DNA of 64,000 bases from Rhynchopus sp. YZ270_cl-10 (GCA_964035575.1 OZ037837.1:1302001-1366000), one strand, 5' to 3'. Counted from the first letter of the stretch, positions 2-61,539 are shown. Made by a program: numbers and translations. Notes: generated by a model from the sequence alone, not told the origin.

Positions 2-1348
2 ACTCCGGACGGATGCCACGTGGTCTCATGCTCGTATGATCGTACAGCACGCCTCTGGAGCCTTTCCACTGGGGAGGAGGTGATGGCGTTCGACAGCGAT
101 TTTGGGTTGCAGTCGGTAACCGTCACACCCGATGGATGCCATGTAGTTGCGGGGTCTGCCAACTACACGATTTGCATCTGGAGCGTGTCAACGGGGAGGG
201 TGGTGACGGTCTTGGAGGGGCATACCTTCAAGGTGATGGGTGTTGCCGTGACACCAGATGGATGCCACGTGGTGTCTGCCTCTTGCGATAAGTCTGTGCG
301 CGTGTGGGACATCATGGCTGGGAAGGAGACTCTCGCTCTGCAGAGCCACCTCTTCATCGTGAACAGTATTGCAGTCGTCTCTGATGCATCTCTCCTATCA
401 TGCTGCCACAATGTGATGTCCACATGGAACCCATCCACGGGCAAGCAGATCCAGCTGTTCGAAGGGCACACCGATACCATATGTGATGTAGCCGTGTTCC
501 CGGACGGATCTCATGTTGTTTCTGGCTCTGTGGACATGACACTACGTGTGTGGAACAGTGAGACCGGCAAGGAGGTGCCTTTCCGCAATCCCAACGAGAA
601 GGTGGTCCATGCAGGTCACATACGGTCCGTGGCAGTGTCACCTGACGCGTCTCACGTGGTATCAGGTTCCGCAGACAAGACTGTCCGTGTGTGGAGCCTG
701 TCGACTGGGAAGGAGGTATCCGTGTTTGATGCAACCTCAAGCGACGTCAATGGAGTCGTAGTGACTCCTGATGGAGTGCATGTGGTTTGCGCCATCGCCA
801 AAACCGTGTGCATGTGGACACTGCACACTGGTGCGGAGACAATGGTGTTCGAAGGGCATACCGACCGAGTTGTGCGTGTGGCTGTGACCCCCGATGGGTC
901 TCGTGTTGTTTCATGCGCGTGGGACCAGACCGTGCGTGTGTGGGACGTCGCCAGCGGGAAGGAGGTGCACACCCTATTAGGGCTTTCTTCCGATCCGTTT
1001 GGGGTGGCAGTGACACCCGACGGAGCGCACGTCGTGTCGTCCGCTGCAGACGGCACTGTGCATGTATGGAGCATCACTACTGGCGAGGAGGTGGCTGTGA
1101 TCCATGGGGATTGTGCTGCATTGCGCAGTATTGCTGTGAGCCCCGATGGACGTGAGGTGATGTGTTGTTCCGAAAAATGCGTGCGCGTGTGGAGCATTTG
1201 CAGGGAAGACGGCACGATTGATGGGAAGACGAGGTTGAAGAGAGTGATCGGTGCCCCTGCCACAGTTCCTCGTGCATCAGGCTGTCGCAATGCTGATGCT
1301 GTGGAGCCCGAGCTTGCGAGACGGATTCTTCTGGACAAGAAGGTGTGA
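2..1348 (+). CDS. WD40-repeat protein, 5'-partial; paralog of the C-terminal propeller region of 6830-12274
   Basis: About 10 GH...VAVTPDG..VVS.S.D.TVRVW repeats, and the frame is open to the window edge. The C-terminus (RLKRVIG.P.TVPR..GC.NADAVEPELARRIL) and downstream DNA are shared with the copies ending at 12027 and 15045. Confidence 0.88.
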   Translation, partial: TPDGCHVVSCSYDRTARLWSLSTGEEVMAFDSDFGLQSVTVTPDGCHVVAGSANYTICIWSVSTGRVVTVLEGHTFKVMGVAVTPDGCHVVSASCDKSVRVWDIMAGKETLALQSHLFIVNSIAVVSDASLLSCCHNVMSTWNPSTGKQIQLFEGHTDTICDVAVFPDGSHVVSGSVDMTLRVWNSETGKEVPFRNPNEKVVHAGHIRSVAVSPDASHVVSGSADKTVRVWSLSTGKEVSVFDATSSDVNGVVVTPDGVHVVCAIAKTVCMWTLHTGAETMVFEGHTDRVVRVAVTPDGSRVVSCAWDQTVRVWDVASGKEVHTLLGLSSDPFGVAVTPDGAHVVSSAADGTVHVWSITTGEEVAVIHGDCAALRSIAVSPDGREVMCCSEKCVRVWSICREDGTIDGKTRLKRVIGAPATVPRASGCRNADAVEPELARRILLDKKV

Positions 1349-2421
1349 GTGCGCTCTGGGGCGTTCTTCTGCGTTGCCTCTACCAATGCGAATGCAGTCT
1401 GAGTGACGCTGCTAGGTCTTCATCAGCAGGTGAAGCAGTCGCGTAGGGTAAGAGCATCCCCTGGCACATTAAAGTGTGCAAGCCTGTGTAATATTTCCTA
1501 CTTTTTACTTCTTTACCTTTCCAGTTCGGGAGGATCTTGTCTTATTGTTCCGTTTTACAACGGGAGGAAGCGTTCAGCACTTTGCATAGTTACACAGTTA
1601 CAAAGCTTTCAGAAATAAATTTGACTTGAAATACGTTGACCAGGTTGACACCTGGTAAACAAAACAAAAGTTACACAGTTACACCTTCAATTGTATTATT
1701 TTTATGCCTCACTGTGCATATCCGTGTTAACACTTTCATCAGGGTCCACTTTGGGTAAACCACTTGTCCATAAAAATAGTTTTTGTTTCATTCTTGTCCA
1801 AATAAGGCGGATTTCGGGATTTTTGGAGTAACTTTGGCGACTTTTTTTGGACTCCGAACATATTTAGAGTCGTGGAGAGCAAATGGGTTGGGTGGAGTGC
1901 ACAAAAAAGGTGAAAAGAAAGAGCCAAGAGTGCAGCCTTGGACAGGTCCATAGCAACACATTCTTTGCGGATACCACTTTTGTTTTTGATTTTAGTAGCC
2001 AAGCACGCGAGGCTAGGTTCACCTCACAAACTGTTCTTTATTTCATTGATTTTGTTCGCACTTTTCTGCATTTTGAATACAACAACACAAAAGGCCACAC
2101 ACCCCTTAACGAATTGAGGATGTTTTGTTGATGTGTCTAAGTGCATGAAGCGCAGATGTGTTGCAACTTTTGAGTGAAAGAGTACTTGAAACACTTGAAG
2201 TGCTTTTGGACAGGAATGAGGAATGTTTTGCACGAAAGCAAATGGCTCATACCCCCTGGTGCCTTCTGCTCCACGCAGGTAGGGTAGGGTAGGGTCCTGT
2301 GACTGCGCCTTCTGTCGCTGTGATGTGCCCGGTGCCTTCCTACCTTCTTTGCCCTCATCTTTCCACACAACACAGCATTGAGAGGGAACGTCATACACAC
2401 ATTGACAAGAAGTGGAAAATA

Positions 2422-3531
2422 ATGCCCAAACGACACGCAAACAGCGATGAGAAGGTTCCAAAGAGAAGAAAGATTTCTGCAGACGAAGTCTTGGTGGAGG
2501 CTGCGAGGAACGGCGACACTGCTGCCGTGCGGGCGGGACTTGAGAAGCTATCCCCAGTGGCAGCCTGGCAGCCGGAGAGGAGAACTGTCGTCTTCGTCTT
2601 CGATGCTGTGCACGAGGCATGCAGAGGGAACCACGATGAATGTCTCGCACTACTTCTTCCGTATGTTGAGACAACGCAAATGGGCTTCGGGATGCTGCTG
2701 AGTGAGTGTGTCCACGCAGACCACACTGCGTGCACGGAGGTACTCTTGCAGCATTGGAAGTCTGTCTGCAGCAACGTCGCGTTTGTGCCACACGGGTTAG
2801 AGGAAGGCAGCGACGGTCAGGCACCTCGTGCCTGTCCAGCCATGTGGGCGGACCCTGCAGTGTGTCAGGTGCTCATTGATGCAGGGGCAGACATTAAGGC
2901 AAAGGACAGCAATGGGCGTTCGCCTCTGCACTGGGCCAGCGAGGAAGGGCATCTCGCGAACGTGAAGCTGTTGGTTGAAGCAGGTGCGGAAGTGCGTTCC
3001 ACAGACAACAAAGGTCGTACGTGCCTTTTCAGCGCGGCACCGCACACCGAGACTGTGCGCTATCTTGTGGGCTTGCCAGATGTGGAAGTGGATCACGTAG
3101 ACGACACCGGCTGCACTGCGTTACACCGCGCAGTGATGCATAAACGCGCAGATGTGGTGCAGGTGCTTGTTGATGCAGGGGCAGACGTAGAGGTGCTGAA
3201 TGGGGACGGACGTTCGCCTCTGCACGTCGCGAGCAAGAGCGGGGAACGCAAAGCTGTGCAGATATTGCTGGAAGCGGGTGCAGGGATGCGTGTCACAGAC
3301 TACGGAAGGCAAACATATCTTGCCCTTGCGGCGGCTGCGGGACACACTGCGACTGTGCGCTCTGTTGCTGGCTTGCCGGGGGTGGAACTGAACCACCAAG
3401 ACGAGCACGGCTGCACTGCTCTGCATTGTGCTGCGAGGGGCGGACATCTGGATGCGGTACAAGTTCTGCTTTATAACGGTGCGGACTGGACCTTGCGCGA
3501 CCAGTACGGTTGCACAGCATTGGGCAATTAG
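2422..3531 (+). CDS. Ankyrin-repeat protein with putative bipartite NLS
   Basis: Repeated GRSPLHxA / GCTALHxA...LLxAGA ankyrin motifs; N-terminus MPKRHANSDEKVPKRRK. The start was taken as the ATG at 2422 within ORF 2299-3531. Confidence 0.88.
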   Translation: MPKRHANSDEKVPKRRKISADEVLVEAARNGDTAAVRAGLEKLSPVAAWQPERRTVVFVFDAVHEACRGNHDECLALLLPYVETTQMGFGMLLSECVHADHTACTEVLLQHWKSVCSNVAFVPHGLEEGSDGQAPRACPAMWADPAVCQVLIDAGADIKAKDSNGRSPLHWASEEGHLANVKLLVEAGAEVRSTDNKGRTCLFSAAPHTETVRYLVGLPDVEVDHVDDTGCTALHRAVMHKRADVVQVLVDAGADVEVLNGDGRSPLHVASKSGERKAVQILLEAGAGMRVTDYGRQTYLALAAAAGHTATVRSVAGLPGVELNHQDEHGCTALHCAARGGHLDAVQVLLYNGADWTLRDQYGCTALGN

Positions 3532-4472: not shown

Positions 4473-5855
4473 ATGGGGTGTGACACGCAGCCCACCGCAC
4501 CACAGATGCCGAGCTGTGAGAACTGTGGCGTGCCTGCACAGCTGCAGTGCGGGAACTGCACGGATCTGTTCCTCTGCGACACACCTGCGTGCTATGACGC
4601 TTGCCATGCAAGGCCACGTGACCGTGAGACACATCGCGCTTCTGTGACTGCGTACGGGACATCGTCGAAGTGTGCACAGCACTCAGGACAAGAGCTGTGC
4701 GTTGTCTGTGAAGACCCTGCGTGTGGAGACGCGTTGATCTGCATGCGTTGTGCTTACTTCGGACACACGGGACACAAGACAGTTGACATCACGGACTACA
4801 TGAAACGCCAGCGTGACACCCTCTGCTCACACGTGACAGACCTGACAACACAGCGGACTGCTGCAGAGGAGAAGTGCCGTGTGCTTGAGGCACTCCCACC
4901 CACGGAGGACAGGTACAAAGACCTTCTCCTGCAGACACACGTCGGGCACCTCGTGATGCGTGAGGATGTGTCGCGCAGCGAAGTCGTGTGTGAGGAGGAG
5001 GTGGCACGGAGCTTCCTCACACAGGCACTCAGTCGTGAAGGGGAGGTGTGTGCACTGAAGATGTTTGTTGCGAAGGCAGGACACATGATTGCTGAGTGTG
5101 AGGCGGTGTGCCAGCTTGGGGACGACCAGGTGCTGCGTGCGGTCACAGAGTCGCAGGCCGTTGTGCGGAACATCAACAGCATGGCAGCGAGTGGAGACCG
5201 CCACCGCCTTGTGGGTGCTGCACACCCACACACAACGTTTTCCCTGAAGCTGCCTGTTTCGAACGTGCACGACGCCCTTGCCCAGATGTCTGCGCTTGTT
5301 GTGCCTGTCCTTGTGCAGGGGTTGGATGGAGTGGAACACGAGATTGAGGTGAGTGTGTATGACACAGGCAGGGACTTGCTTCGGAAGGTGGCGTCTGCAG
5401 TGGGGTTGCGTGAAGGTTGCTTCGACATGACTTTCAGAGATGAAGTGATTGCAGAAGGAGAGGACGTGGTGCAGCTGAGGGGTCACAGGGTTGTTGTGAC
5501 GCAGACCAGCACAGAGAGGAGGAAGCAGGATGCCATTGCAGCACTTCGTGCGTTGGGTGAGACGACACTTACATCACAACGGTTGGAGCAGGTGACTGAT
5601 CCGAAGGTGGCTTGCTTGCTCCTGCAGGCACAAGTTGCGACTGCGATTCCAGACAACAGACAAGACGTTGGGGCAAGGACAGGTGAAGGGCATAAGCGTA
5701 GAAGGCGAGGGTGCCGGGGAGGGCAACATGCAAAACGGAACGCAGTCGAATATCGTGCGCTGCCGCCCGCACCCCGAAAGTGGTTCTGTATGACATGCCG
5801 CAGCATAGCCATGGGAAGCCACTGCGAAATGTGCGCATGGCACAGAGTTAGATAA
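4473..5855 (+). CDS. B-box zinc fingers + helical/coiled-coil + ubiquitin-like domain + C-terminal RanBP2-type Zn finger
   Basis: B-box1-like CENC..CGNC..LCD..C...H and B-box2 CAQH..LCVVCED..C...ICMRC...GHTGHK; Ubl-like VLVQGLDGVEHEIEVS..DT..DLLRKVA; C-terminal WFCMTC..HCEMC. Confidence 0.78.
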   Translation: MGCDTQPTAPQMPSCENCGVPAQLQCGNCTDLFLCDTPACYDACHARPRDRETHRASVTAYGTSSKCAQHSGQELCVVCEDPACGDALICMRCAYFGHTGHKTVDITDYMKRQRDTLCSHVTDLTTQRTAAEEKCRVLEALPPTEDRYKDLLLQTHVGHLVMREDVSRSEVVCEEEVARSFLTQALSREGEVCALKMFVAKAGHMIAECEAVCQLGDDQVLRAVTESQAVVRNINSMAASGDRHRLVGAAHPHTTFSLKLPVSNVHDALAQMSALVVPVLVQGLDGVEHEIEVSVYDTGRDLLRKVASAVGLREGCFDMTFRDEVIAEGEDVVQLRGHRVVVTQTSTERRKQDAIAALRALGETTLTSQRLEQVTDPKVACLLLQAQVATAIPDNRQDVGARTGEGHKRRRRGCRGGQHAKRNAVEYRALPPAPRKWFCMTCRSIAMGSHCEMCAWHRVR

Positions 5856-6829: not shown

Positions 6830-9800
6830 ATGGGGTCCGGAGCGTCGAAGCCTGAAAAGGACGAGATTGCAAAGGCAATCACAGAGAAGGAGAGGCCCGT
6901 GGACGCAGTGGACAGCGTGGACAGGAGGACAATGCTGCACAGTGCCGTGCTTGCGGGGGATGTGGAGGCAGTGCGGTTTCTTGTGAAGAATGGTGCAGGG
7001 AACGTGCGTGACAGGGACGGGAAGGTGCCGCTGTGGTACGCACTGCATCACAGGGACGCGGATGTGCGGGGCCGACTTGAGGCGGAGCTGGGGGCGCATG
7101 CAGCAGAGATCCTTGGTGAGGTGGAGGATGCTGTGCAGGTGTATCTCACTGACGGTGTTGCGACAACAACAACAACACCAGCACGTGTGTCGGTGGAACG
7201 GAGCAGTGGAGATGCAACGACAGCACTTCTTGCTGACCCTCACATGGACAAGGCAAAAGACACGAACACCTTGACTGGAGATAGGCACCTGGGAGAGGAC
7301 GATCTTTACGGGGACACGGAAACACTGCGGCATACAGACGGACGGAAGGTGGAGTGGCTGCGGAAAACAGACGACAACAAGAACAAGAACAGCAGTGGAG
7401 GTGAAGACCTGCTGTGCTGGCTGCGTGGTCTGCCAAAGGTGGATCCGCCGTTGGGCTACACAGACGAACACGTGCGGCACATGGAGGGAGGGTTCCGTGT
7501 GGTGTGCAAACGTCTGCTGGAGGACATCAGAAGACGGAGGGAGGCTGCGGGGACACGTGGTGGGCACGTGGAGGTGGAGGACTGGATGGCGGCACGCGAC
7601 CCGTTTGAGCTGCTGCTGTCGGGATTCCTGTTCACGTCTGACTGTGTGGAGTATGTGCTGGACAGCGGCGGGGATGTTGTGTGTGACGAGGACGGCACAC
7701 CGCAGATTGCGAAAGGGCCTGACGGGAAGCTGCGGTACATCCGTCTGACGGAGCGGGCTGTGCTGGACCACCACGGGAGTGCTGCTGAGTCACAGTCGCT
7801 TGCGCTGTACGCAACGATGAACACTGCGATGCGTGCTGTGGGGTGGCTGCCTGCGGTGAAGGAGTGGAAGGGGACGGCAGCACCGAACGTGTTTGAGCTG
7901 TCACCCGCACCCCCGCAGCTGCACGTGATTGCGACCTTTGCGCCGCTGATCCGTGGTCTGGACCGGCTGATTGGGAGCCGGAGGAAGCAGCTGCGGACTG
8001 TGTTCCGTGGGATCAATGTGAACGTGTCTGCGAAGTACGCGTTGGGGACGCACATTGTGTGGAACTGCTTCACGTCGACAACACTGAAGCGGGATGTGGC
8101 TCGGAGCTTCATGTACGGGAAGGGTGGCACGTTCTTTGTGGTGGTGGCGAAGGAGGGTGCTGCAGACGTGAAGTTCTCTTCTGTGTATGCTTCGGAGGAC
8201 GAGCTGCTGTACACAGCGAACATCGAATACCGTGTGCAGTGGAAGCTTTCGCCTACGTTGCTGCGGATGATGGGGCTGCGCTTTGACGTGATTGTGATGC
8301 AGGAGGTGTGCACGGGTGTGGGGGAGACGAGTGCAGCTGAGCAGGTGGGTGCGCTGCAGGAGGTGATGGGACACACAGTCGCGTTCTTTGAGGACTACCT
8401 TGCGCAGTACGTGGAGGGGCGTGTGGGGGACGACACACGTGTGGATGAGTCGGAGACACGTCCACTGATGGAGGAGGTGCGGAGGTGGCTTCGTGCACGT
8501 GGAGGTGGAGAGATGTCTGCAGTGTGCACACAGGCAGCAGCGGGCACAGAGCGCAAGCCTGATGTGGAGGCGAGAGAAGAAAGACAAGAGACGTGTGGTG
8601 TACTGTGTGTGATCGGAGAAGGAGGGAGCGGGAAGACGTCTGCTTCGATTGCAATTCTGAGCGACCTTGCAACATCTGCGAGGAAGAGCGAAAACATCAG
8701 CAGCGAAGGCACAAACAGGAACAGAAACAGTGTGGTGAGTGATGTGACTGCGGATGCGAAGCCGTACTTCCCTGTGTTTGTGGCGCTGCCGACAGTGAAG
8801 CAGCACCTGCTTGAGAAGGGAGGGTTGGACAGGTTTGTGCTGGAGTCGTTTGCGCTGCGGGAGGCGGACCGTGCGTACCTTGCGGAGACGTACGAGGTTG
8901 TGCTGGTGCTGGACTCGCTGGACGAGGTTGGTCTGACGCAGGAGGATGTGGATGCTGTGGTTGCTGAGGGTGGCCTTCTGTGCCGGCACCCGTGGGTGGA
9001 GGCACACTGCAGCGTTGTTGTGACTGTGCGTGGTGAGTACCTGAAGGGTGTGGACACGTCTCCGTCTGGTGTGTGTGGGGCTGGTGTGCGTGCTCTGTAC
9101 ATGCAGCCGTTCACAGAGGTGGATGCGAGAACGTACATCAAGCGTGCAAACACAGCCTGGGAGAAGGAGAAGGAGAAGTCAGCCCACAAGGAAGAGCGCA
9201 CAGTCTTCGTGCGTGAGGAGGACGTTGAGGGACTTGTGCAGCTGCGGAACCCGTTTGTGTTGCATATGGCGTGCCACGCACAGTGCAGTGGGAAGGCTTC
9301 TGAGGAGGTGATCTACGAGACCTACCTGGAGACGTGGACGAAGAAGGAGATGGCGTCTGGTGGAGTTGCTGTTGCTGATGCTGGTGCTGTTTCGGATGTG
9401 TCTTTGGAGGATGTGGTGCGTGCAGGGGAGCTTGTTGCATGCAGGATGCTGGAGACAAACGAGTGGCAGGGGACTGTGGGTGTGGCGTCGAAGCTTCTTG
9501 ATTCACAGCACGGTGTGTGTGAGGCTGTGCGTGATGCGTGCTTCCGCTGCCTGCCGTTCCGGATTGAGGACTTTGGGGAGGAGCGGAGTGCGTTCACGTT
9601 CCGGCACAAGTCGCTTGGGGAGCACCTTGCAGCACGGCGGCTTGCACGTGATCCAGCAGGGACACTGGGGACGCTGGTGCAGCGGAGCTTCAGCAAGGAC
9701 TCGCAGCGTGTGCTTGGGTTCTTTGCGGCGCTGGTGTGTGGAGACAGTGTGCTGTACGAACGTGCCTGCACAGAGCTGCTTGCGGCTGTGAAGGCGACAC

Positions 9801-31000: not shown

Positions 31001-31336
31001 GAGTTTTGTACCCATACCAAAACCCTGTCCTGTCTGATACACAGGTACGACTTTGTGCAATGTAGGCAGTTTCACATGCTTTTTTGGTGAGCGGTTTGTG
31101 CACTCCACACTCCGCACCATTTACGGGCATGGCACGCCACAGTTTCTCTTTCACACGTTTTCTGCCATTGGTGCTGCTTCGTAGTCTCAGGAGCGACGCT
31201 CGCAACACCCGACAGGTTGTTACCCAAAAAGACCCACACCCTCTCATATTTTTGTACCTTGTTTCTGTCTTTTGTGCCATCCAACACCACACCACACCAC
31301 ACCCAGCAGTCTCTTCTTTTCGTACACCTCAGAACA

Positions 31337-33958
31337 ATGGTGTCATGCGGCATCCAGTCGCTGACAGTGCTGCTGTGTGTGGTGTTGATCCTGTCGACGG
31401 GTGCGATCATCGGTGGCTTCACTCTGTCAACATGGGACAACCTTCTGGAGAAGGCACGTGACACAGGTGACGAGGGTTTCATCATGTGTCTCGACAGTGG
31501 TACGGCGGACATCGAAGCAGTCTCGGGGCGCTACCTGCGCTCTGTCATGGGCAATGTGGACACGGCGGTGAAGGAGTACCTGAAGGTGCCTGAGCAGCTG
31601 GTGATGGCACTGGCGAACCTGGCACGGGCACACCACCCAAACGTCAGCACGAGCCCTGCATTTGCGAACAAAGTAATGCGTCCTGCTGCACTGGCTGCTT
31701 TTGTGGCTGGGAAGACGGCAGGGGTGGACGCCATATCGGCAGAAGCGTACCCCTGGTGCCAGGCACATCCCTTTCCGTGGAAGCATGGGGACGGCTTCGC
31801 AGGGTGGGGCTCACGCTTCGGGTTCAGAGGTTTGCAGACATCAAGCGGCATCCCTCCGACGGATGGCTCCCCAGGACCAGACCTTCTGTACGAGTCGCGC
31901 GACCTAGCGACACTATCGGTGGGGCTGTCGGACTGGGCGATGTACACAGAAAGCAACGGCTTGGGGGACATCAAGAACCGATCAGCGCCGTGCAACCACA
32001 TGCCGGACTACAGCAAGAACCAGGTACGTGGGATGTGCATCTACCCCACTTTTTATGTTGAACCCCCGGGCTCCAAAGTGGTCGACCAACGTGGAAGACG
32101 TATGTACTACCTGGGTGCCGACGAGCCTGCCCTCAACCCTGCGGACACGCTTGTCTACTCATCCATGCAGGTGCAGTGGGACATCGTTACGTGGGGGATC
32201 AGCTACACCTACACCCACCCAGACATGTACACGATGCACCCCAAGCAGGGCAAGCGTGTGGGTTCCGTCAATGGCCAAGTGAGTGCGAAAGGGGTCACCG
32301 AGGTGGTGGAATCACAGCTGCTCCCGGCCAGCACGTCGCTGTACCTGGTGCAGGAAGACCAGCAGGGCTCAGTGGGTCTCCTTGTCGCGTACAACATCGG
32401 GCGGCATGTGACAGTGATCCCTCGCGACAACGGTATTGGTGTTGTCACGGACTTCGTATACAGCATCAACATAACGAACCACTCGATGGACGACGCCACG
32501 ATTCACACCCCCTCAGTGATTGCAGAGCACGGGCGGTTTGTGTTCACACACCCACGGAACTACAGAGACCTTGCGGAGATGACAAAGACGAGGTTCATGA
32601 AGTGGTCTGACTCGAACGGCACGGAGTACTGGACGATGACGTCGACAATTGAGCACAAAACGATTGTGTGGCACGCAAACCTTGTGATCCCGAGGGCATC
32701 TGTGATGGATACGATTGATGCGTCGACGAATGCAATCCGTGAGAAGGTGGCAGCTGATCTGTCCTCTGCAGACGCACAGCAGGAGGATGCTGTGGTGGTG
32801 ATGGTGATTGTTACCGCCGTGGCGATCATAGTCCTTCTGGCCGTTGCTGTTGTGTTCACACACTACATCACGTCCCCTCTGCTGAAGCTTGGGGATGAGA
32901 TGGCAAGTGTGGCTGTGATGGACCTGGAGGCTGTGGACACAGGCCGTGCAGTGTCGCAGCTGAGTGAAGTGGGGGAGATGCAGCGCAGCTTTGTTACCAT
33001 GGTGGCGAACCTGGTGGAGTACCGGAACTACATGCCGCAGAGTGTGCTTGTCAACGACAGTGACAACGAGGAAGTTTCTGTGGGGCGCTCTTCACCGGGG
33101 TCGAGGACGCGTTCAGGCACGTCGAGGTCTTCTCGTGGAAGGAGCAGTGCTGCCAGCTCCGTGGTTGTACAGAACCAGAAGGCACTGCTGCGTGTGGAAG
33201 GCTTGAAGAAGAAGAAGGTGTCGCTGGCACACATGAACGTCGTGTCGTGGCACGCCTTCTGCAAGAAGCAAAAGGACGCAGAAGTGCTCTCCGCACACGG
33301 GGGTGTGATTGAGAGGATCCTGTCAGCAGTGCAACACAACAAAGGTGTGTGCGACACGTTCGCAGGAGACAAGATGCTTGCCACTTTCAACGCCTTTGTT
33401 CCGAAGGCGTCGCACGCTGCTTCCTGTGTGAAGGCTGCACACGAAGCAGCAACGGCACTTGGTGAAGTGCACAAGATCTCGTACGGGTGCACGACAGGCG
33501 AGGCACGTGTCGGGAACATGGGCTGCAACAGGATGAAGAAGGTCTCTATTCTTTCACACTGCATGTCGTGGGTGGTTGTGCTGGAACGTTGGAACAAAAT
33601 GCATACCCTGCCTGGTGTTGTTGACCGCACGATGTCGCGCGATCTGGAAGGACAGGTGGTACTGCGTTGTGCGGGTGCTGTGCTGTACGAGAAGATGACT
33701 CAGAAGGCACAGACCGTGTTCGCTGTGAAGGGTTTGTGCGACAGCGAAAACGAGGAGTGGATGTACCAGCTTGAGTCCGCCGCAGCCAACCCGCACGCAC
33801 TGTGGAACGAGGTCTTCGAGAACATCATCAAACAAGACTTTGAGAAGGCGTCTTCCCTGCTGGACAGCGTCGCTCAGGACCAACGTGCAGAGTACGAAGA
33901 GCTGCTCTGCCACGTTCAGCACAAGGTTTACGCACCGTTTGTTGTGGATCTGCACTGA
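31337..33958 (+). CDS. Receptor-type membrane protein: TM - large sensor domain - TM - HAMP - class III nucleotide cyclase-like domain (probably inactive)
   Basis: Hydrophobic helices LTVLLCVVLILSTGAII and VVVMVIVTAVAIIVLLAVAVVF; HAMP ITSPLLKLGDEM..SQLSEVGEMQRSF..M; YRNYMPQSV linker; cyclase core FAGDKMLATFN, GEARVGNMG. Confidence 0.85.
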   Translation: MVSCGIQSLTVLLCVVLILSTGAIIGGFTLSTWDNLLEKARDTGDEGFIMCLDSGTADIEAVSGRYLRSVMGNVDTAVKEYLKVPEQLVMALANLARAHHPNVSTSPAFANKVMRPAALAAFVAGKTAGVDAISAEAYPWCQAHPFPWKHGDGFAGWGSRFGFRGLQTSSGIPPTDGSPGPDLLYESRDLATLSVGLSDWAMYTESNGLGDIKNRSAPCNHMPDYSKNQVRGMCIYPTFYVEPPGSKVVDQRGRRMYYLGADEPALNPADTLVYSSMQVQWDIVTWGISYTYTHPDMYTMHPKQGKRVGSVNGQVSAKGVTEVVESQLLPASTSLYLVQEDQQGSVGLLVAYNIGRHVTVIPRDNGIGVVTDFVYSINITNHSMDDATIHTPSVIAEHGRFVFTHPRNYRDLAEMTKTRFMKWSDSNGTEYWTMTSTIEHKTIVWHANLVIPRASVMDTIDASTNAIREKVAADLSSADAQQEDAVVVMVIVTAVAIIVLLAVAVVFTHYITSPLLKLGDEMASVAVMDLEAVDTGRAVSQLSEVGEMQRSFVTMVANLVEYRNYMPQSVLVNDSDNEEVSVGRSSPGSRTRSGTSRSSRGRSSAASSVVVQNQKALLRVEGLKKKKVSLAHMNVVSWHAFCKKQKDAEVLSAHGGVIERILSAVQHNKGVCDTFAGDKMLATFNAFVPKASHAASCVKAAHEAATALGEVHKISYGCTTGEARVGNMGCNRMKKVSILSHCMSWVVVLERWNKMHTLPGVVDRTMSRDLEGQVVLRCAGAVLYEKMTQKAQTVFAVKGLCDSENEEWMYQLESAAANPHALWNEVFENIIKQDFEKASSLLDSVAQDQRAEYEELLCHVQHKVYAPFVVDLH

Positions 33959-34072: not shown

Positions 34073-34517
34073 GGGATAAGGACAGTCTGGCCCACTCAGC
34101 GGCTTGGACAGTATGAGCGTAAAATGTTTGATAAAGACAGTTCAGACCCAGGCAGTGGTGGTGGTATCATGGCAGGGTCTGGTCGACAAGCACACTCGTG
34201 GGGTATGTGGGTTTTGCTGTCTTTCGGATTTTGCGGGTTTATGATTTACCCAACATGCTCGTGGGTTTTATGTGGGTTGATAAGCAGGCTTGATCAGAAC
34301 CCCGATAACTCACATAAAACCCACGAGCCTGCTGGGTAAACCACAAACCCGCAAAATCCGAAAGACAGCAAAACCCACATACCCCACGAGTGTGCTTGTC
34401 AACCAGACCCTGCCATGATACCACCACCACTGCCTGGGTCTGAACTGTCTTTATCAAAACGTTTTTGGGCCCATACTGTCCAAAAGCCACACTGAGTGGG
34501 CCAGACTGTCCTTTTCC
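34073..34517. mobile_element. Foldback/Mutator-like MITE, near-complete ~440-bp palindrome
   Basis: Arms of about 200 bp (aggacagtctggcccactcag ... ctgagtgggccagactgtcct). Termini and the gataaagacagttcagaccca motif are shared with 55398-57337. Confidence 0.82.
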
Positions 34518-42779: not shown

Positions 42780-44560
42780 ATGAAGCGTTCCTCCGTGACT
42801 GAGTCCCCCACCACAAAGAAGGCCCGGGTGGACGGCCCTGCACCCTCCCACCTCTCCGAAACACACAATGTGGTTGCCACGCAGCCCACCGCACCACAGA
42901 TGCCGAGCTGTGAGAACTGTGGCGAACCTGCACAGCTGCAGTGCGGGAACTGCACGGCGCTGTTCTTCTGCGACACACCTGCGTGCTTCGAAGCGTTACA
43001 CCCGAGGGCTCTCGACCGCGAGACACATCGCGGTTCTGTGACTGCGTACGGGACGTCGTCGAAGTGTGCACAGCACCCAGGACAAGAGCTGTGCGTCGTC
43101 TGTGAAGACCCTGCGTGTGGAGACGCGTTGATCTGCATGCGTTGTGCTTACTTCGGACACACGGGACACAAGACAGTTGACATCACGGACTACATGAAAC
43201 GCCAGCGTGACACCCTCTGCTCACACGTGGCAGACCTGACAACACAGCGGACTGCTGCAGAGGAGAAGTGCAGTGTGCTTGAGGCACTCCCACCCACGGA
43301 GGACAGGTACAAAGACCTTCTCCTTCAGACACGCGTCGGGCACCTCGTGATGCGTGAGGATGTGTCGCGCAGCGAAGTCGTGTGTGAGGAGGAGTTGGCA
43401 CGGAGCTTCCTCACACAGGCACTCAGTCGTGAAGGGGAGGTGTGTGCGCTGAAGACGTTTGTTGCGAAGGCAGGACACATGATTGCTGAGTGCGAAGCGG
43501 TGTGCCAGCTTGGGGACGACCAGGTGCTGCGTGCGGTCACAGAGTCGCAGGCCGTTGTGCGGAGCATCAACAGCATGGCAGCGAGTGGAGACCGCCACCG
43601 CCTTGTGGGTGCTGCAGGTCCACGTTTTCCCTGAAGCTGCCTGTTTCGAACGTGCACGACGCCCTTGCCCAGATGTCTGCGCTTTTTGTGCCTGTCCTTG
43701 TGCAGGGGTTGGATGGAGTGGAACACGAGATTGAGGTGAGTGTGGATGACACAGGCAGGGACTTGCGTCGGAAGGTGGCTTGTGCAGTGGGGTTGCGTGA
43801 AGGCTGCTTCGACATGACTTTCAGAGATGAAGTGATTGCAGAAGGAGAGGACGTGGTGCAGCTGAGGGGTCACAGGGTTGTTGTAACACAGACCAACACA
43901 CAGAGGAGGAAGCAGGATGCCATTGCAGCACTTCGTGCGTTGGGTGAGACAACAATTACATCACAAAGGTTGAAGCAGGTGACTGATCCGAAGGTGGCTT
44001 GCTTGCTCCTGCAGGCAGGAGTTGTGACTGCGATTCCAGAAGGCTTCTTCATGAGAACTGCAGTGACGTGTATTGATCTCAGTCATGCGTCTGCTGTGAC
44101 TGCGATTGGGCACGGATTTGTTCGTGACTGCACAGCTTTGACTAACGTTGATCTGAGTGGATTGCAAGCTGTCACCTCGATTGGTGACTCGTTCCTCTTC
44201 GGGTGCAAATCATTGTTGTCCGTTGATCTGAGTGGATTGCGACCAGTGACCTCGATTGGGAACTACTTCCTGCAGGGGTGCACATCATTGTCGACAGTTG
44301 ATCTTAGTGTATTCAAAGCTGTCACCACCATTGGGAACTGCTTCCTGTGGGGGTGCACATCATTGTCGACAGTCGATTTGAGTGGATTACAAACTGTCAC
44401 CTCGATTGGGAACCACTTCCTCGACAGGTGCACAGCGTTGAAGACCTTGCATGGAAAGGACAAGTGCAGCAGTGTTGTACGCAACAAGATCCCGACACTT
44501 GCGCCAGTGCCAAGTATGAGAGCGTTCAAATTCACACTTCCTCCAAGTCTAACACAGTGA
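42780..44560 (+). pseudogene. B-box/coiled-coil/Ubl/BspA-type LRR gene with a frameshift
   Basis: Near-identical to 57782-60004, but gacccacacaca is replaced by ggtcc at ~43617-43621 (net -7 nt), splitting it into ORFs 42780-43634 and 43490-44560; 6 LRR units including caps. Confidence 0.82.
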
Positions 44561-48500: not shown

Positions 48501-50834
48501 TTTCAACCACCTTCCTTCAACCCTTGTAGGGATCAGTTGTAATTTTTTTCGCGAAAACATGAAATTATACATTTCAAGAGAACAAATTAAAAAGGGTCCT
48601 TATTTGCATTTTTGGGCTCCGCCCGTGCAGTGGTGGGGTCAATCTCGAAAATTGGACAATTTTTTGACTACTTAAATTTTGAGAAATATGAGCCCGGTTG
48701 CTTATACGTGGGGCCCATTTTCAGCTAAAATTTTCCTCAAAATCTGGTTTTGTAAAATTGACCCTTTACTCCCCCCCCACATCGATTTCAATACTATACC
48801 TTACTTCACCTACGGTTACCCTTACAGGGGGGTGAAGGAAGGTAAGTTGAAAAGTGTGACTGAGTGTGGGGATGCGTTCAAGAATTAAACTCTTCCCCCC
48901 AAACCCCCTTTTCGTCTTTGTTTTCTTTATCCAAACGGCAAGTGGATGCGTAATAATTTCTAGCATGACCAATTCGCAACATGTGTGTGTGTTGGGGTTG
49001 TAAAGTCGGCAGTGGTGATGTACAGTGTGTACAACTTTGTTTTTGTTGTTTCTAGTTTTGTACATTTACTTTCCACACAGAGGGGTTACGAAGAACTGCT
49101 GATTGCGAGCCGTACTCTGAACGAGAAGATGCGTCAGAAGACGTTGGCGATGAAGGTGTGTAACACGTGCTTTTCACATCTATTTTTATTTTATTTTTCT
49201 AGCATGACCCATTCACAACATGTGTGTTGGGGTTGCAAAGTAGGCACTGGTGATGCACAGCGTGACACAACTTTTGTTTTTTAATTTTCTTGTTTCTATT
49301 GTGTACCGTTACCTACCCAACCGGACCCAACACAGCCCATCTGGACCACCTGGGGTCAATTATACCCAATTATACCCAAGTATATTGTTATATACAGTAA
49401 GACAACAAACATCGGAGGGGTAAAAAGCCTCCTTAGAGTTCTGAAATTCCGAAATTCACCTTAGTTTTTACCCCACCTATATTTTTACCCCGCCGGTGTT
49501 TGTCGTCTTACTGTATTTATTTTACACACAGTTGCAGTTGCAGTTGCTGATGGAGGAGAACACGGAGACGAGCCAGAGTTCTGAAAGTGCTTCAAGCAGC
49601 TCAGGTTCAAGTTCCGTAGGCCATGGTTCCGAGAGTTCATTTCATTGATATTATTATGAAATAATTTCAAACTTCGCACACTTTGCTTTTACAATACCCC
49701 ACAACAAATGATTTCTTGTGCTTTTGCAGATTTCTTGGGCACCCAAACCACCTAGTTACACATTCGTGCCCAACTCATGCAAGCAATTGGCAACGTCAGG
49801 TCACATGCAACGATTGTTCCGCAGCAAGAAGCATTACCCTGTGATCGTACAGACCGCACGGGATTCTCCCTAATGTACCCATAACTAAATTTAATAAGAA
49901 AGTGAACAAATACAGCCTCTGTTCCCACAGAGCGAATTAACCCCCCTCGCCGTATCCCGACGAAAACGGTAATTAGGATCTGGTTAGCACAGCTAAAAAA
50001 AAGTAAACAAACCCGAAAAACCCAGTCTTCGAGAAGAAGAAAAAAGGACAAGGCCACGTAAGTATGTAAACGGAATGGGATACACTGGAACCCTACCGAT
50101 CGTAAGGTAAGGGAAACCAGCCCTGTAGTGTAAGTAGTCCCCCGCAGAGAACAGACTTTGTGGATTACAAAAGTCGAATTTCTTGCACTAGCTATGCTCC
50201 CTGGGTAAATGGCTATAGCATTGGTTGATGTGCCCTCTGTATTGTGTTAGTAGCGCTGTCTACTGCAGGCGACAACAACTGCACTTATCGGTGGATGTCT
50301 TGGCTCTGGGATTGATGAAGACCGCAGCTAGACGCGATATTCAATGGGAATTGCAGAAGCATGAGACTCATCAGGTCGTCGAACGTATTTGCGGGCCGGG
50401 TTCGCCCACCTTCTGAAAAGACTCTAATTATACTCTATTTAGAGTTCAGTACGTGTTTTTAAAGACTCTAATTATACCTAACTGTCGACCCTAATGATCT
50501 AATTAAAGCGTAATGTACAAATGAATCCTTCAAAATGATGTTCCCCACCTATTGTATCCCTTTTTTGCAATGTGTTTTTCATTGAAGACGTAGCATGTTG
50601 TATCGGAAACGATTCGTATTCTTGCACAAAATGGTTTTGATGCATAAATCTTGTAAAATGCTCGCATGTGGTCTGCACGATTCCTGCATGTGAGATTGCA
50701 TGTGGGCATGATGCTCAAGTGATTGACGTGTGTGAATCATTTCCGATGTCTGCAGCTTACACCCCTCATCAATAAGTCACACCCAACCCCTTCCAGACAC
50801 CCCTGCACCCTCCCACCTCTTCAAAACACACAAC

Positions 50835-51104
50835 ATGTCTGGCATGCAGCCCACCGCACCACAGATGCCGAGCTGTGAGAACTGTGGCGTGCCTGCACAA
50901 CTGCAGTGCGGGAACTGCACGGATCTGTTCCTCTGCGACACACCTGCGTGCTACGACGCTTGCCATGCAAGGCCACGTGACCGTGAGACACATCGCGCTT
51001 CTGTGACTGCGTACGGGACGTCGTCGAAGTGTGCACAGCACCCAGGCCAAGAACTGTGCGTCGTCTGTGAAGACCCTGCGTGTGGAGACGCGGTGTTCTT
51101 CTGA
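50835..51104 (+). pseudogene. Truncated B-box gene copy (B-box1 + half of B-box2) fused to unrelated sequence
   Basis: Matches the 4473/57782 family up to CEDPACGDA (~51091), then diverges and stops; upstream 50640-50835 matches 57588-57782. Confidence 0.8.
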
Positions 51105-55397: not shown

Positions 55398-57337
55398 GGG
55401 GTAAGGACATTCTGGTACCCCCAAGTTTGACTTTTGGACAATTCAGACCCACAAGGTTTCGATAAAGACAGTTCAAACCCACAAGGTTTACGATAAAGAC
55501 ACTTCAGAACCACAAGGTTTGCATTTTGGACAGTTCAACCCCACAAGGTTTGCACTTTGGACAGTTCAGACCTTGTGGGTCTGAACTGTCCAAAATGCAA
55601 ACCTTGTGGGTCTGAAGTGTCCAAAATACAAACCTTGTGGTTCTGAACTGTCCAAAAGTCAAACCTTGTACGTGTTTTCTTCTTCTAAGGTGCTTGCTCT
55701 CCATACCTAGACCCTCGAATTTTTTTTCTTGACCCCATGCATATGGGTGCATTTCGACGATTTGAGGCCATTCAAAGCAAAAGTTGGCACTTTTGAGCAT
55801 CTGCGGGGGTCTAAAACACGGTTTTGCGTACACCACGCTGGATGATAGGGGTCACATGATAGGTCACATCATGTGGCCATATATCAAGTTACACCGCAAA
55901 AATCTACCAGACCCTGTCTTCGTACAACGCCGCAGACAGGCCAAACATGCGTTGGACTCAGAGGAATGCCTGCTGTGCAGGTATCAAACATGAGAACCAA
56001 CTCCCAGCAACAAGGGGCGCCTTTTGGCAGGCGTTGTTGAGGGTGTTTGGGGTGCAAAGTTTTCCACAATTTTGATGCGCGGGTACAGAAGTGTTGTCTT
56101 GTTCTTTCATCTCTAGGAAGTTAAATGTTCAATCGCGTTTAACTACCACTAGGGCTTGTTCAGTGAACCCACGAGGGGTCGAAGGGGGTTGGTTATCCCA
56201 TATCTATCAAAGGTTGTGTCGACCAGGCGAATCCACTATGTTACGCTGTACGTTGTTAAATCCGAAGAAATAACAACAGTGCATATGGCAGCGTCCGCAA
56301 ACCACCCCCCGGTTATTATATAAGGTTATTATCAACTGCAGGAAGTTTGTTAAAAAGAGTGCCTCACGCTACACAAACCACCACCCGCGATTGACTTAGA
56401 TGATAACTAGAGAATTCAGAACAAAACAACACCCTGCCCCATACACACTAAATTGTCATGCTCAAGAGCATGCCTGGGCCAAAATTACTGTGACAAGAAG
56501 GCAACAAGACCACCCACAAGGAGTGTGAAATGTGCACTGGTTTTCTGGGGGAACGCAATATTTTATTGTGCCTCGTCCTCCGCGAGCAGAGGACAGACTT
56601 TCCGGAAAGTTTCCAAAGGTCGAATTTCTTGCACTAGCCATGCTCCCTGGGTTAAATGGCAATAGCAGTGACTGACTTCTGAGAGAAACAGGGTACTTGA
56701 AACCCAATTTTCATTATTTTGGTGTAATCCTGTGAGGGATGGGTGGGGAGGTGTGGGTGTGGGTGGGTGAAAAAAGGTGCACGAAGACAGGGTCTGGTAG
56801 ATTTTTGCGGTGTAACTTGATATATGGCCACATGATGTGACCTATCATGTGACCCCTATCATCCAGCGTGGTGTACGCAAAACCGTGTTTTAGACCCCCG
56901 CAGATGCTCAAAAGTGCCAACTTTTGCTTTGAATGGCCTCAAATCGTCGAAATGCACCCATATGTATGGGGTCAAGAAAAAAAATTCGAGGGTCTAGGTA
57001 TGGAGAGCAAGCACCTTAGAAGAAGAAAACACGTACAAGGTTTGACTTTTGGACAGTTCAGAACCACAAGGTTTGAATTTTGGACACTTCAGACCCACAA
57101 GGTTTGCATTTTGGACAGTTCAGACCCACAAGGTCTGAACTGTCCAAAGTGCAAACCTTGTGGGGTTGAACTGTCCAAAATGCAAACCTTGTGGTTCTGA
57201 AGTGTCTTTATCGTAAACCTTGTGGGTTTGAACTGTCTTTATCGTAAACCTTGTGGGTCTGAATTGTCTTTATCGAAACCTTGTGGGTCTGAATTGTCCA
57301 AAAGTCAAACTTGGGGGTACCAGAATGTCCTTACCCC
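55398..57337. mobile_element. Mutator/foldback-like non-autonomous element with ~530-560-bp TIRs
   Basis: Left arm 55398-55923 is the reverse complement of right arm 56781-57337; GGGG/CCCC ends; A9 on both sides (compatible with a 9-bp TSD); ~31-bp subrepeats in the arms. Confidence 0.88.
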
Positions 57338-60267: not shown

Positions 60268-61539
60268 ATGGAAATCACAGTCGCATATCGCACCGACGGT
60301 CGTTCTGCCGTTGTGGTGGTGGGAGAGGACGAGACGGTGCTGTCCCTGCGACAGCGGACAGCGGCGCTGCTTGGGGTGCAGACGTGCGCACGGGGCACAG
60401 CACTGTTTGCTGAGACTGCCGCAGAAGGCACCGCACTGTGCGACACAGACCGTGTTGCGGACACAAGCGTTGTGTCTGGGATGAAGGTAACCCTACGTGA
60501 CGTGCACCCCACTGTGTCCGCACCCATGCACTATGCAACAGGCAGGCCACAGGTGTTGCTGCTGTCGCCACTGGGCGACCGTCTCTGTGTTGTGTCGACG
60601 GGAAACATCCTGCACATCTTCGACACCAACAGCGGTGCTCAGGTGATGCAGGCCACTGCTTACTATATGTCAAAACCTGCGTTTTCGCCGTGCGGGACGT
60701 GGGTGGCAAGCACCACTATGGGGAACGCACTTCAGGTACACCGTGTCTCAGACTCCTGTTCACGCCGTGCAGCCACCGCACACCGCGACCGTGCAGCCAC
60801 CGCGTGGTCGCCCTGTGGAACTGCCGTGCTGTCCTCCTCTGCAGACGGTTCTGTCTGCTGCTGGGAGTATGATGACAGCAGCGAGCCCCTTCCCGCACGC
60901 TGGGTGTGCAACGCTGCCACAGCACACACCGACGGGTGTGCCGTGGCAGCCCTACGCAAGCAGGTTGTGTGCAGCAGGCGAGGCGGAAGCTTTGTGGCAC
61001 TGAGCCTCACCGACGGTGCTGTGCTGTACGAGCTGCCAGGACATTCGCGCGATGTGCGTGACGTGCAGACCAGACAGGGCGGCTTCGTGTCGAGTGGGTA
61101 CGACTCAACGGTGCGGGTGTGGCACGTCAGCGATGCAGAAGAAGACACGCTGTGCCCTGCTGTGTGCATGCATGTGTTGCCCTGCGAGGCGGTTGTGCAC
61201 CGTGTTGCTGCTGCGGGTGATATGGTCGCTGGCTACACGCAGGAGGGTGTGGTGCTGTGGGTGGACGACAGCAGCACTGCAGCAGGAGGAGGGGGAGCAG
61301 GAGGGGCAGGGGGCAGTGGTGGTGATATGCGTGCTGTCGCCACCATCGCGTACACAGCCTCCTTCTGGTTCGGCGTGGCCTTGAGCCGCTGTGGGAACAT
61401 CATCTACGTTGCTGTGCGCGATGGTGTGCAGGCCACACCCGTCTCCTCCGCCATGTCGTGGGGTGCGCTTGAGCCCCCCAGCAGGGAAACAGTGGACACA
61501 GAGACACGGCCCCACCGCAGGCGTTGTGTTGTGTCGTGA
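60268..61539 (+). CDS. Ubiquitin-like + WD40 protein with C-terminal CaaX-like motif
   Basis: Ubl-like N-terminus (VVVGEDETVLSLRQRTAALLG..LF); WD40 LPGHSRDVRDV..FVSSGYDSTVRVW; ends RPHRRRCVVS. Confidence 0.78.
   Translation: MEITVAYRTDGRSAVVVVGEDETVLSLRQRTAALLGVQTCARGTALFAETAAEGTALCDTDRVADTSVVSGMKVTLRDVHPTVSAPMHYATGRPQVLLLSPLGDRLCVVSTGNILHIFDTNSGAQVMQATAYYMSKPAFSPCGTWVASTTMGNALQVHRVSDSCSRRAATAHRDRAATAWSPCGTAVLSSSADGSVCCWEYDDSSEPLPARWVCNAATAHTDGCAVAALRKQVVCSRRGGSFVALSLTDGAVLYELPGHSRDVRDVQTRQGGFVSSGYDSTVRVWHVSDAEEDTLCPAVCMHVLPCEAVVHRVAAAGDMVAGYTQEGVVLWVDDSSTAAGGGGAGGAGGSGGDMRAVATIAYTASFWFGVALSRCGNIIYVAVRDGVQATPVSSAMSWGALEPPSRETVDTETRPHRRRCVVS

What the first reader, a model, noticed from the sequence alone, without database searches (positions are those of the whole stretch)
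6830..12027. NLR-like receptor with a built-in ADP-ribosyltransferase toxin domain (Myr-ANK-ART-NACHT-pentapeptide-WD40)
Seen in sequence: a complete R-S-E triad (VFRG, FTSTT, SEDELL with an E-x-E motif) directly N-terminal to a NACHT NTPase (GEGGSGKT, LDSLDE, HKSLGEHLAA), then pentapeptide repeats and a long WD40 sensor, plus an MGSGAS myristoylation signal. Established knowledge: NACHT-WD40 STAND proteins (fungal HET-E type, bacterial NACHT defence proteins) follow an effector-NTPase-sensor layout, and ExE-type ARTC enzymes are typically arginine-specific. Inference: this is a membrane-anchored, ligand-triggered ADP-ribosylating immune or cell-death receptor in a protist. I do not recognise it as a characterised system, and it is the best candidate for a novel system in this window.
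Basis: partly seen in the sequence, partly recalled or inferred. Interest (0 to 1): 0.88.

Follow-up and report, generated by a model that had tools for sequence, protein, structure and literature searches.

The report
Protist immune receptors with ADP-ribosylating warhead
This gene, from what is likely a marine diplonemid protist, belongs to a large family that joins a nearly unchanging enzyme domain with the predicted fold of an ADP-ribosyltransferase to an NLR-type switch and a sensor whose binding face differs in almost every copy, so it is likely an undescribed innate-immune receptor of single-celled eukaryotes, although neither its enzyme activity nor its trigger has been tested.

Summary
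The architecture is real. ORF 6830-12274 encodes an MG start, ankyrin repeats, an R-S-E ADP-ribosyltransferase (Pfam ART above cut-off; predicted fold like HopU1 and ART2.2), a NACHT NTPase (NLRC4/NOD2-like fold, LDSLDE Walker B), pentapeptide repeats and about 14 WD40 blades. It is not a lone gene. There are 60 close copies, 27 of them on contigs of one identical length (probably one contig). All 60 keep R393, S416, E456 and E458. Among 44 of them the ART is 97% identical, but four WD40 positions per blade are only 31% identical, at the spacing of the positively selected sites of fungal HET-E/HET-D. Distant relatives come from diplonemid and kinetoplastid transcript sets and put the same ART-NACHT core before WD40, LRR, TPR or ankyrin sensors. 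Best reading: an NLR-like non-self receptor family that signals by ADP-ribosylation. Activity, substrate, ligand and cell death are inferred. This copy has a one-base frameshift near 11924 that loses a tail kept by 52 of 60 copies, and no RNA for it was found. Ten literature searches found no ART-NACHT receptor.

The parts
6830..6850 (+). MGSGASK, predicted N-myristoylation motif (MGxxxS/T-K/R)
   Evidence: Sequence; the motif is found in 57 of 60 close copies. Lipidation not tested.
6857..7063 (+). About two ankyrin repeats (residues 10-78)
   Evidence: Pfam Ank_2 and Ank_4 above cut-off
7400..8329 (+). R-S-E ADP-ribosyltransferase domain (residues ~191-500): R393 at 8006, S416 at 8075, E456-x-E458 at 8195-8203
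   Evidence: Pfam ART; model pLDDT 88; Foldseek and VIA matches to Vis, HopU1, 6drh, ART2.2, ExoS; triad in 60 of 60 close copies
8585..9919 (+). NACHT/STAND NTPase with helical and winged-helix parts: Walker A 8615-8638, Walker B LDSLDE 8909-8926, FRHKS motif near 9600
   Evidence: Model pLDDT 82.6; Foldseek NLRC4 E 1.3e-11, NOD2, NLRP3; K602, D695, D698, E699 in 73 of 73 aligned proteins
9920..10084 (+). Pentapeptide-repeat beta-helix
   Evidence: Pfam Pentapeptide above cut-off; short repeated strands in the model
10100..11899 (+). WD40 sensor, 14 blades anchored (likely two propellers), hypervariable at offsets -8, -6, +10, +12 from each PDG turn
11900..12027 (+). Conserved family tail (…VEPELARRIL…), out of frame in this copy after a one-base frameshift near 11924; the ORF instead reads on to 12274
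   Evidence: tail in frame in 52 of 60 close copies; contigs of three runs are one base longer here
20..1348 (+). 3' end (WD40 and tail) of an upstream tandem paralog, P0053 (1689 aa, with a full ART-NACHT)
13631..15045 (+). Internally deleted downstream copy: the first 17 codons are joined directly to WD40 sequence; ANK, ART and NACHT are missing; a second deletion changes the frame near 13965

Best explanation
This gene is one of at least 60 close copies of a NACHT-WD40 protein with a conserved R-S-E ADP-ribosyltransferase-fold domain and a hypervariable sensor face, and it likely works as an NLR-type non-self receptor that would switch on that enzyme when triggered. Steps: (1) shown: the layout is anchor motif, ANK, ART, NACHT, pentapeptide, WD40. 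(2) shown: effector and switch are nearly fixed while four top-face residues per blade vary. (3) inferred from STAND biology: the closed, ADP-bound protein is opened when a foreign or tampered protein binds the WD40 face, and it then oligomerises. (4) inferred from the ExE motif: the freed ART transfers ADP-ribose from NAD+ to an arginine of one shared host target, likely near a membrane, which would arrest or kill the infected cell. I put about 0.8 on 'non-self receptor with an NAD+-using ART output' and about 0.5 on the full chain including a host protein target. This copy may be impaired by its late frameshift.
For: ART fold: Z 13.6 to HopU1 (rmsd 3.7, 203 aligned), 13.5 to 6drh, 12.7 to ART2.2; the first 23 rows are ADP-ribosyltransferases or toxin chains, and the next row, an unrelated designed protein, has Z 4.3. 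R, S and the second E fall in or at the expected strands of the model. NACHT fold and the D[GAS]hDE Walker B that Kibby et al. give as the NACHT mark. Triad kept in 60 of 60 close copies and in 71 of 73 aligned proteins. Mean pairwise identity among 44 close copies: ART 97%, NACHT 96%, WD40 77%, the four variable sites 31%, with up to 17 residues at one site and up to 43 distinct four-site combinations in 44 copies per blade. The spacing 2-16-2 equals codons 7, 9, 25, 27 under diversifying selection in Podospora HNWD genes (PMC1805685). dN at these codons is 0.80 against scaffold dS of 0.27-0.36 (downstream copy) and 1.6 against 0.85 (upstream copy). Tandem arrays and broken copies fit birth and death. 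The same ART-NACHT core carries WD40, LRR, TPR or ankyrin sensors in distant relatives.
Against: No activity, ligand, substrate or death phenotype was tested. The codon test rests on three segments against two other copies (8-36 codons at the variable sites), and dS is also raised at those codons (0.54, 2.1, saturated), so it is not a clean proof of positive selection. Three of the four offsets were picked after seeing the entropy table, so the permutation result (0 of 100,000) is inflated. The 44 copies were chosen by WD40 similarity out of 73 aligned. Suicide is less obviously useful to a single cell than to a mycelium. This copy lacks the in-frame tail. P0070 and P0072 have lost the triad, so some members work without it or are decaying.
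Confidence: 0.5

Rival explanations
1. Same receptor, but the ART acts mainly as an NAD+ glycohydrolase or makes a small signal, like TIR or SIR2 effectors on STAND proteins, instead of modifying a protein.
For: NAD+-cleaving effectors on STAND proteins are a recurring theme (10.64898/2026.09.21.753143, abstract in listing). Some R-S-E enzymes, such as ART2.2, hydrolyse NAD+ (recalled). The fold cannot tell the two apart.
Against: Both glutamates of ExE are kept in 71 of 71 non-degenerate aligned proteins. The first E is the acceptor-specifying residue in arginine transferases (recalled). A large surface of the domain is invariant, which suggests a substrate or an intramolecular contact.
Confidence: 0.15
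2. The activated ART attacks the invader directly (a protein or nucleic acid of an endosymbiont, prey bacterium or virus at a vacuole membrane), and the cell survives.
For: A single cell gains more from clearing than from dying. The predicted lipid anchor would suit a vacuole membrane. Diplonemids host Holosporaceae and Rickettsiaceae endosymbionts (PMC8061765, passages).
Against: The ART is the least variable part of the protein (mean entropy 0.07-0.09), which fits one fixed host target better than a moving foreign one.
Confidence: 0.12
3. The family serves allorecognition or an intragenomic conflict (self/non-self between conspecific cells, or poison-antidote drive), as HET-E/HET-D do with HET-C.
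For: The variable sites match those of the fungal allorecognition genes. Large tandem arrays fit a conflict.
Against: Sixty paralogs with different faces is more than allorecognition needs. No partner gene or eraser was seen among the window's scanned ORFs. The blades within a gene are not homogenised (mean 27% identity), unlike HNWD genes.
Confidence: 0.1
4. A non-immune signalling family whose copies multiplied neutrally or by segmental duplication; the WD40 variation is relaxed constraint on surface loops.
For: Surface loops tolerate change. dS is also raised at the variable codons. Many copies are broken.
Against: Variation is confined to alternating top-face positions, while neighbouring and bottom-face loop positions stay conserved (PDG turn 0.1-0.3 bits against 2.5-2.8 bits at the three main sites). 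Sliding the pattern lowers the signal at every shift tested.
Confidence: 0.06
5. The family is as described, but this copy is a recent pseudogene (or the frameshift is an assembly error).
For: One-base frameshift near 11924; the tail is kept in 52 of 60 copies. A deleted copy lies 1.4 kb downstream.
Against: All catalytic and switch residues are intact, and only 3 private substitutions occur at 763 conserved columns, within the range of its siblings. All 14 blades precede the break.
Confidence: 0.35

Closest known systems
Fungal HNWD/NWD receptors (Podospora HET-E, HET-D)
   Same: Effector-NACHT-WD40 layout, multigene family, four hypervariable top-face positions per repeat at the same spacing (PMC1805685 passages).
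   Different: The effector is an R-S-E ART, not a HET domain; there are ANK and pentapeptide modules; repeats within a gene are not homogenised (27% mean identity), and the variation is between paralogs at matched blades.
Animal NLRs and Apaf-1 (NLRC4, NOD2, NLRP3)
   Same: NACHT-type fold; tripartite layout; some distant relatives have LRR sensors.
   Different: Enzymatic effector in cis instead of CARD or PYD; 9-14% sequence identity; protist host.
Bacterial NACHT proteins (bNACHT, Avs; cyanobacterial NACHT-pentapeptide proteins)
   Same: D[GAS]hDE Walker B; the NACHT-pentapeptide part resembles bacterial NACHT-pentapeptide clusters by language-model features (0.94); enzymatic N-terminal effectors.
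   Different: No ART effector was found in the texts searched; no PADLOC match for the window's domains; no close prokaryotic relative by pattern scan.
R-S-E (ARTC) mono-ADP-ribosyltransferases: HopU1, Vis, ExoS, the 6drh toxin, vertebrate ART2.2
   Same: Fold, R-S-E triad, ExE motif and the Y-x-x-x-N-x-x-M-R helix.
   Different: Those are secreted toxins or ecto-enzymes. This one is fused inside a cytosolic STAND receptor, at 13-21% identity to the top matches.
TIR- and TeTIR-STAND NADase receptors (plant TNLs, TEP1-type)
   Same: NAD+-using enzyme coupled to a STAND switch and a repeat sensor (10.64898/2026.09.21.753143, abstract in listing).
   Different: Unrelated enzyme fold; transfer to a target is predicted here, not hydrolysis.

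Membership tests
NACHT-clade STAND NTPase | Walker A GxxGxGK[ST] | tested here: met
   GEGGSGKT; K602 in 73 of 73
NACHT-clade STAND NTPase | Walker B D[GAS]hDE | tested here: met
   LDSLDE; motif definition from Kibby et al. legend
NACHT-clade STAND NTPase | NBD-helical-winged helix fold | tested here: met
   Foldseek NLRC4 E 1.3e-11, TMq 0.44; NOD2; NLRP3
NACHT-clade STAND NTPase | Pfam NACHT above gathering score | tested here: inconclusive
   15.7 bits against 26.7 for this protein; relative P0112 passes both NACHT (26.9) and ART (36.8)
NACHT-clade STAND NTPase | Ligand-induced nucleotide exchange and oligomerisation | not testable with these tools
   Needs biochemistry
R-S-E (ARTC) ADP-ribosyltransferase | ART fold with R, S-T-S-type motif and catalytic E on the expected strands | tested here: met
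R-S-E (ARTC) ADP-ribosyltransferase | E-x-E motif of arginine-specific members | tested here: met
   E456-D-E458; both E in 71 of 73
R-S-E (ARTC) ADP-ribosyltransferase | Transfer of ADP-ribose from NAD+ to an acceptor | not testable with these tools
   Needs an assay
Fungal HNWD/NWD family | NACHT plus WD40 with four diversifying top-face positions | tested here: met
   Offsets -8, -6, +10, +12 match the spacing of codons 7, 9, 25, 27
Fungal HNWD/NWD family | N-terminal HET domain | tested here: not met
   ANK and ART occupy the N-terminus; no HET match at E up to 10
Fungal HNWD/NWD family | Concerted evolution with near-identical repeats inside a gene | tested here: not met
   Internal repeats 27% mean, 62% maximum identity
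Described anti-phage STAND systems (PADLOC 2023) | Match to a system's profile | tested here: inconclusive
   No match for the window's ART or NACHT parts at E 0.1; the library dates from 2023
N-myristoylated protein | MGxxxS/T at the true start and modification in vivo | tested here: inconclusive
   Motif in 57 of 60 close copies; modification untested; absent in P0073 and P0074

The most novel reading that the evidence does not exclude
Diplonemids and related euglenozoans have a full NLR immune repertoire of their own. It is built on a fixed ART-NACHT core that swaps WD40, LRR, TPR and ankyrin sensors and diversifies its ligand face in an arms race. It would be a class of NLR in which a toxin-type arginine ADP-ribosyltransferase is the built-in executioner, in single-celled eukaryotes.
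Probability: 0.55. Interest if true: 0.9.

Novelty: new variant of a known kind. Interest (0 to 1): 0.82.

Why it matters
How free-living protists sense and fight intracellular bacteria and viruses is largely unknown. This family gives a concrete, testable candidate in diplonemids, a very diverse marine group that hosts endosymbionts (PMC8061765). It would add ADP-ribosylation to the known NLR outputs (pores, caspase platforms, NADases, nucleases). It also shows the same four WD40 positions diversifying in fungi and in euglenozoans, which points to a general way to build a variable receptor. A named, cultured species (Diplonema papillatum, KAJ9461234.1) carries a homolog.

Tried and rejected
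No whole genome is held for this window, so copy number comes from protein searches. Expression: no RNA holder was listed among 24 runs. Contigs laid on the start showed no spliced-leader end and ran on upstream like DNA. This says nothing for or against expression of this copy. Depth figures from those calls were not used as copy numbers. Pattern scans found no relative in viral contigs or in prokaryotic genomes, and one short hit in JGI metagenomes (L001); these scans see close relatives only. A PDB sequence search gave only a weak HopU1 match (E 1.1); the profile search was swamped by WD40. NCBIfam and PADLOC gave nothing for the ART. The Atlas search of the ART scored 0.84, a lead only. 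A local alignment timed out and was replaced, which left out P0039 and P0064 (rearranged). Haplotype duplicates were rejected as the source of the copies: only 1 pair among 55 has an identical WD40 region and the next is 87%. No complex prediction was run. The Pigoraptor (Filasterea) homolog is not taken as proof of spread outside Euglenozoa, because such predator cultures are fed kinetoplastid prey (recalled); the same caveat applies to Papus.

Full report
Observation. The window holds an open reading frame at 6830-12274 on the + strand, 1814 aa. Pfam scans of the parts give ankyrin at residues 10-78, ART above its cut-off (27.9-29.7 against 22.3 bits), weak STAND/NACHT matches below cut-off (nSTAND1 E 9e-5, NACHT E 0.013) and pentapeptide repeats above cut-off. 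WD40 fills the last third. After about 11924 the family's conserved tail lies out of frame, and the ORF reads on in unrelated residues to 12274. Contigs from three public runs are one base longer at this place, and 52 of 60 close copies keep the tail in frame. The break is therefore particular to this copy, or an assembly error.

Folds. A model of residues 191-510 (pLDDT 88) matches R-S-E ADP-ribosyltransferases. Foldseek ranks Vis, HopU1, ExoS, SpvB and C3 first (E 7e-8 and up). The independent wide search gives HopU1 Z 13.6 (rmsd 3.7, 203 aligned), 6drh 13.5 and ART2.2 12.7. Its first 23 rows are ADP-ribosyltransferases or toxin chains, and the first unrelated chain follows at Z 4.3. R393 and S416 lie in strands and E458 at the start of a strand, as expected; I could not measure distances. 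A model of residues 511-1090 (pLDDT 82.6) matches NLRC4 (E 1.3e-11), NOD2 and NLRP3. Its Walker B, LDSLDE, fits the D[GAS]hDE mark of NACHT modules (Kibby et al., 10.1101/2022.07.19.500537, passages).

Family. A search with residues 190-1000 returned 75 proteins among 7985 scored candidates. Sixty, this one included, are 83-100% identical over that region; 27 share a longest-contig length of 1,539,504 and 6 share the window's 798,917. A second full copy ends at 1348 of the window (P0053). An internally deleted copy at 13631-15045 joins the first 17 codons directly to WD40 sequence. Further truncated copies turned up. In an alignment of 73 of the 75, R393, S416, E456 and E458 are kept in 60 of 60 close copies and in 71 of 73 overall; P0070 and P0072 have lost them. 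The Walker A lysine and the Walker B acids are kept in 73 of 73. Named homologs are Diplonema papillatum KAJ9461234.1, annotated only as a putative WD repeat protein, and a Lacrimia lanifica transcript. In a FastTree of 34 chosen ART-NACHT stretches the window's gene nests with these and with an 'Hpha'-labelled transcript (support 0.92). The organism is thus likely a diplonemid (inferred).

The sensor face. Among 44 close copies, chosen for an alignable WD40 region, mean column entropy is 0.07-0.09 bits in the ART, 0.15 in the NACHT and 0.75 in the WD40; 102 of 592 WD40 columns exceed 1.5 bits, against 0 of 305 in the ART. Across 14 blades the peaks sit at offsets -8 (2.83), -6 (2.54) and +10 (2.66) from the PDG turn, with a lesser rise at +12 (1.38), while the turn itself stays at 0.1-0.3. 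Paoletti et al. (PMC1805685, passages) found diversifying selection at codons 7, 9, 25 and 27 of Podospora HNWD repeats, on the top face of the propeller: the same 2-16-2 spacing. Pairwise identity at the four sites is 31%, against 87% in the core strands and 97% in the ART. No random draw of 54 WD40 columns in 100,000 reached the observed mean, but three offsets were chosen after seeing the data, so this overstates significance; the match to the published spacing is the independent part. A codon comparison with the two other copies in the window gives dN of 0.80, 0.80 and 1.6 at those sites against scaffold dS of 0.36, 0.27 and 0.85. It rests on only 24, 8 and 36 codons, and dS is also raised there. 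Unlike HNWD genes, blades within a gene are not homogenised (27% mean identity). Copies with WD40 scaffolds only 46-65% alike still share ARTs 92-94% alike, and P0023 and P0052 share an identical WD40 region. This suggests exchange between paralogs (inferred).

Wider range. A full HMMER scan with the ART-NACHT region found 217 representatives at E up to 0.001 and listed 150. Of 139 newly stored proteins (134 representatives plus 5 cluster siblings), 82 have an ART directly before the NTPase. The query held both domains, so this share is biased towards fusions. Among 31 of them that I picked for Pfam, C-terminal sensors were WD40 or other propellers (6), LRR (3), TPR (2), ankyrin (1) or PDZ (1), and N-terminal additions included SAM, RCC1, ankyrin and an ANF-receptor domain. 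Of 10 looked up, 7 are named transcript-derived proteins: Lacrimia, Flectonema, Namystynia (3), the prokinetoplastid Papus and the filasterean Pigoraptor; the last two could be prey-derived (recalled caveat). So the family is transcribed in several euglenozoans, although no RNA was found for this copy. An earlier, unchecked note of this scan (e1-7216601) described the same kind of gene in another genome; I confirmed the diplonemid part and did not test its euglenid claim.

Mechanism. Shown: the layout, the two predicted folds, intact catalytic and switch motifs, a large and churning family, a fixed effector and a variable sensor face. From established STAND biology: such proteins rest closed and oligomerise when the sensor binds a ligand. 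Inferred: the ligand is a microbial or tampered-self protein; oligomerisation frees the ART; ExE directs ADP-ribose to arginine; the target is one conserved host protein near a membrane; the result is arrest or death. Rivals are NAD+ hydrolysis, direct attack on an invader, allorecognition and neutral expansion. Whether this copy works is a separate question. Its first 1090 residues show no excess decay (3 private changes at 763 conserved columns), but it has lost the tail.

Known or new. It works like a fungal HNWD receptor or an enzymatic bacterial NACHT protein, but it is not a member of the HNWD family (no HET domain, no internal homogenisation). Ten full-text searches listed no paper on ART-NACHT receptors or on NACHT proteins in diplonemids. 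Passages of PMC7159879, PMC8195603, PMC7955679, PMC12881547 and 10.64898/2026.09.21.753143 showed no such fusion. Subscription papers are not in the library. The 2015 review of ADP-ribosyltransferase evolution by Aravind and colleagues, which I know only from memory, may list such an architecture, so novelty is likely but not proven.

Verdict. It is a new variant of a known kind. Interest 0.82.

Noticed in passing
window 13631-15045 (+): Copy of the family whose first 17 codons are joined directly to WD40 sequence. A similar internal deletion (Walker A joined to late WD40 blades) is seen in P0088. Pseudogenes, or sensor-only decoys.
   Followed up: partly
window 57782-60004, 42780-44560, 4473-5855, fragment 50635-51099 (+): A second repeated family: B-box, a weak FERM_N (ubiquitin-like) match and BspA-type LRRs. 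One copy is intact, one is split over two frames and one is truncated. Possibly another variable receptor family.
   Followed up: partly
window 15447-16526, 60268-61539, 62457-63575 (+): Three small proteins with a WD40-like propeller behind a short N-terminal domain that looks ubiquitin-like by eye (not confirmed).
   Followed up: no
window 55398-57337 and 34074-34517: Long inverted repeats (560-base arms at 94%; a 454-base near-palindrome) with related pieces elsewhere in the window. They may be non-autonomous transposons.
   Followed up: no
window 31217-33958 (+): 913-aa ORF with hydrophobic stretches and no Pfam match at E 0.01. The C-terminal part resembles a degenerate nucleotide cyclase by recalled motifs.
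   Followed up: no
window 17449-18879 (+) and 2299-3531 (+): An amidohydrolase (Pfam Amidohydro_1) and an ankyrin-repeat protein lie among the receptor copies.
   Followed up: no
P0039 (2932 aa): Paralog with one ART-NACHT followed by three winged-helix/pentapeptide/WD40 modules in series.
   Followed up: no
P0133 (Namystynia karyoxenos, 2847 aa): ART-NACHT core behind an ANF-receptor ligand-binding region, a possible surface-receptor version.
   Followed up: no
P0070 and P0072: Full-length members whose ART has lost the R-S-E triad; possible pseudo-enzyme helpers or decaying copies.
   Followed up: no
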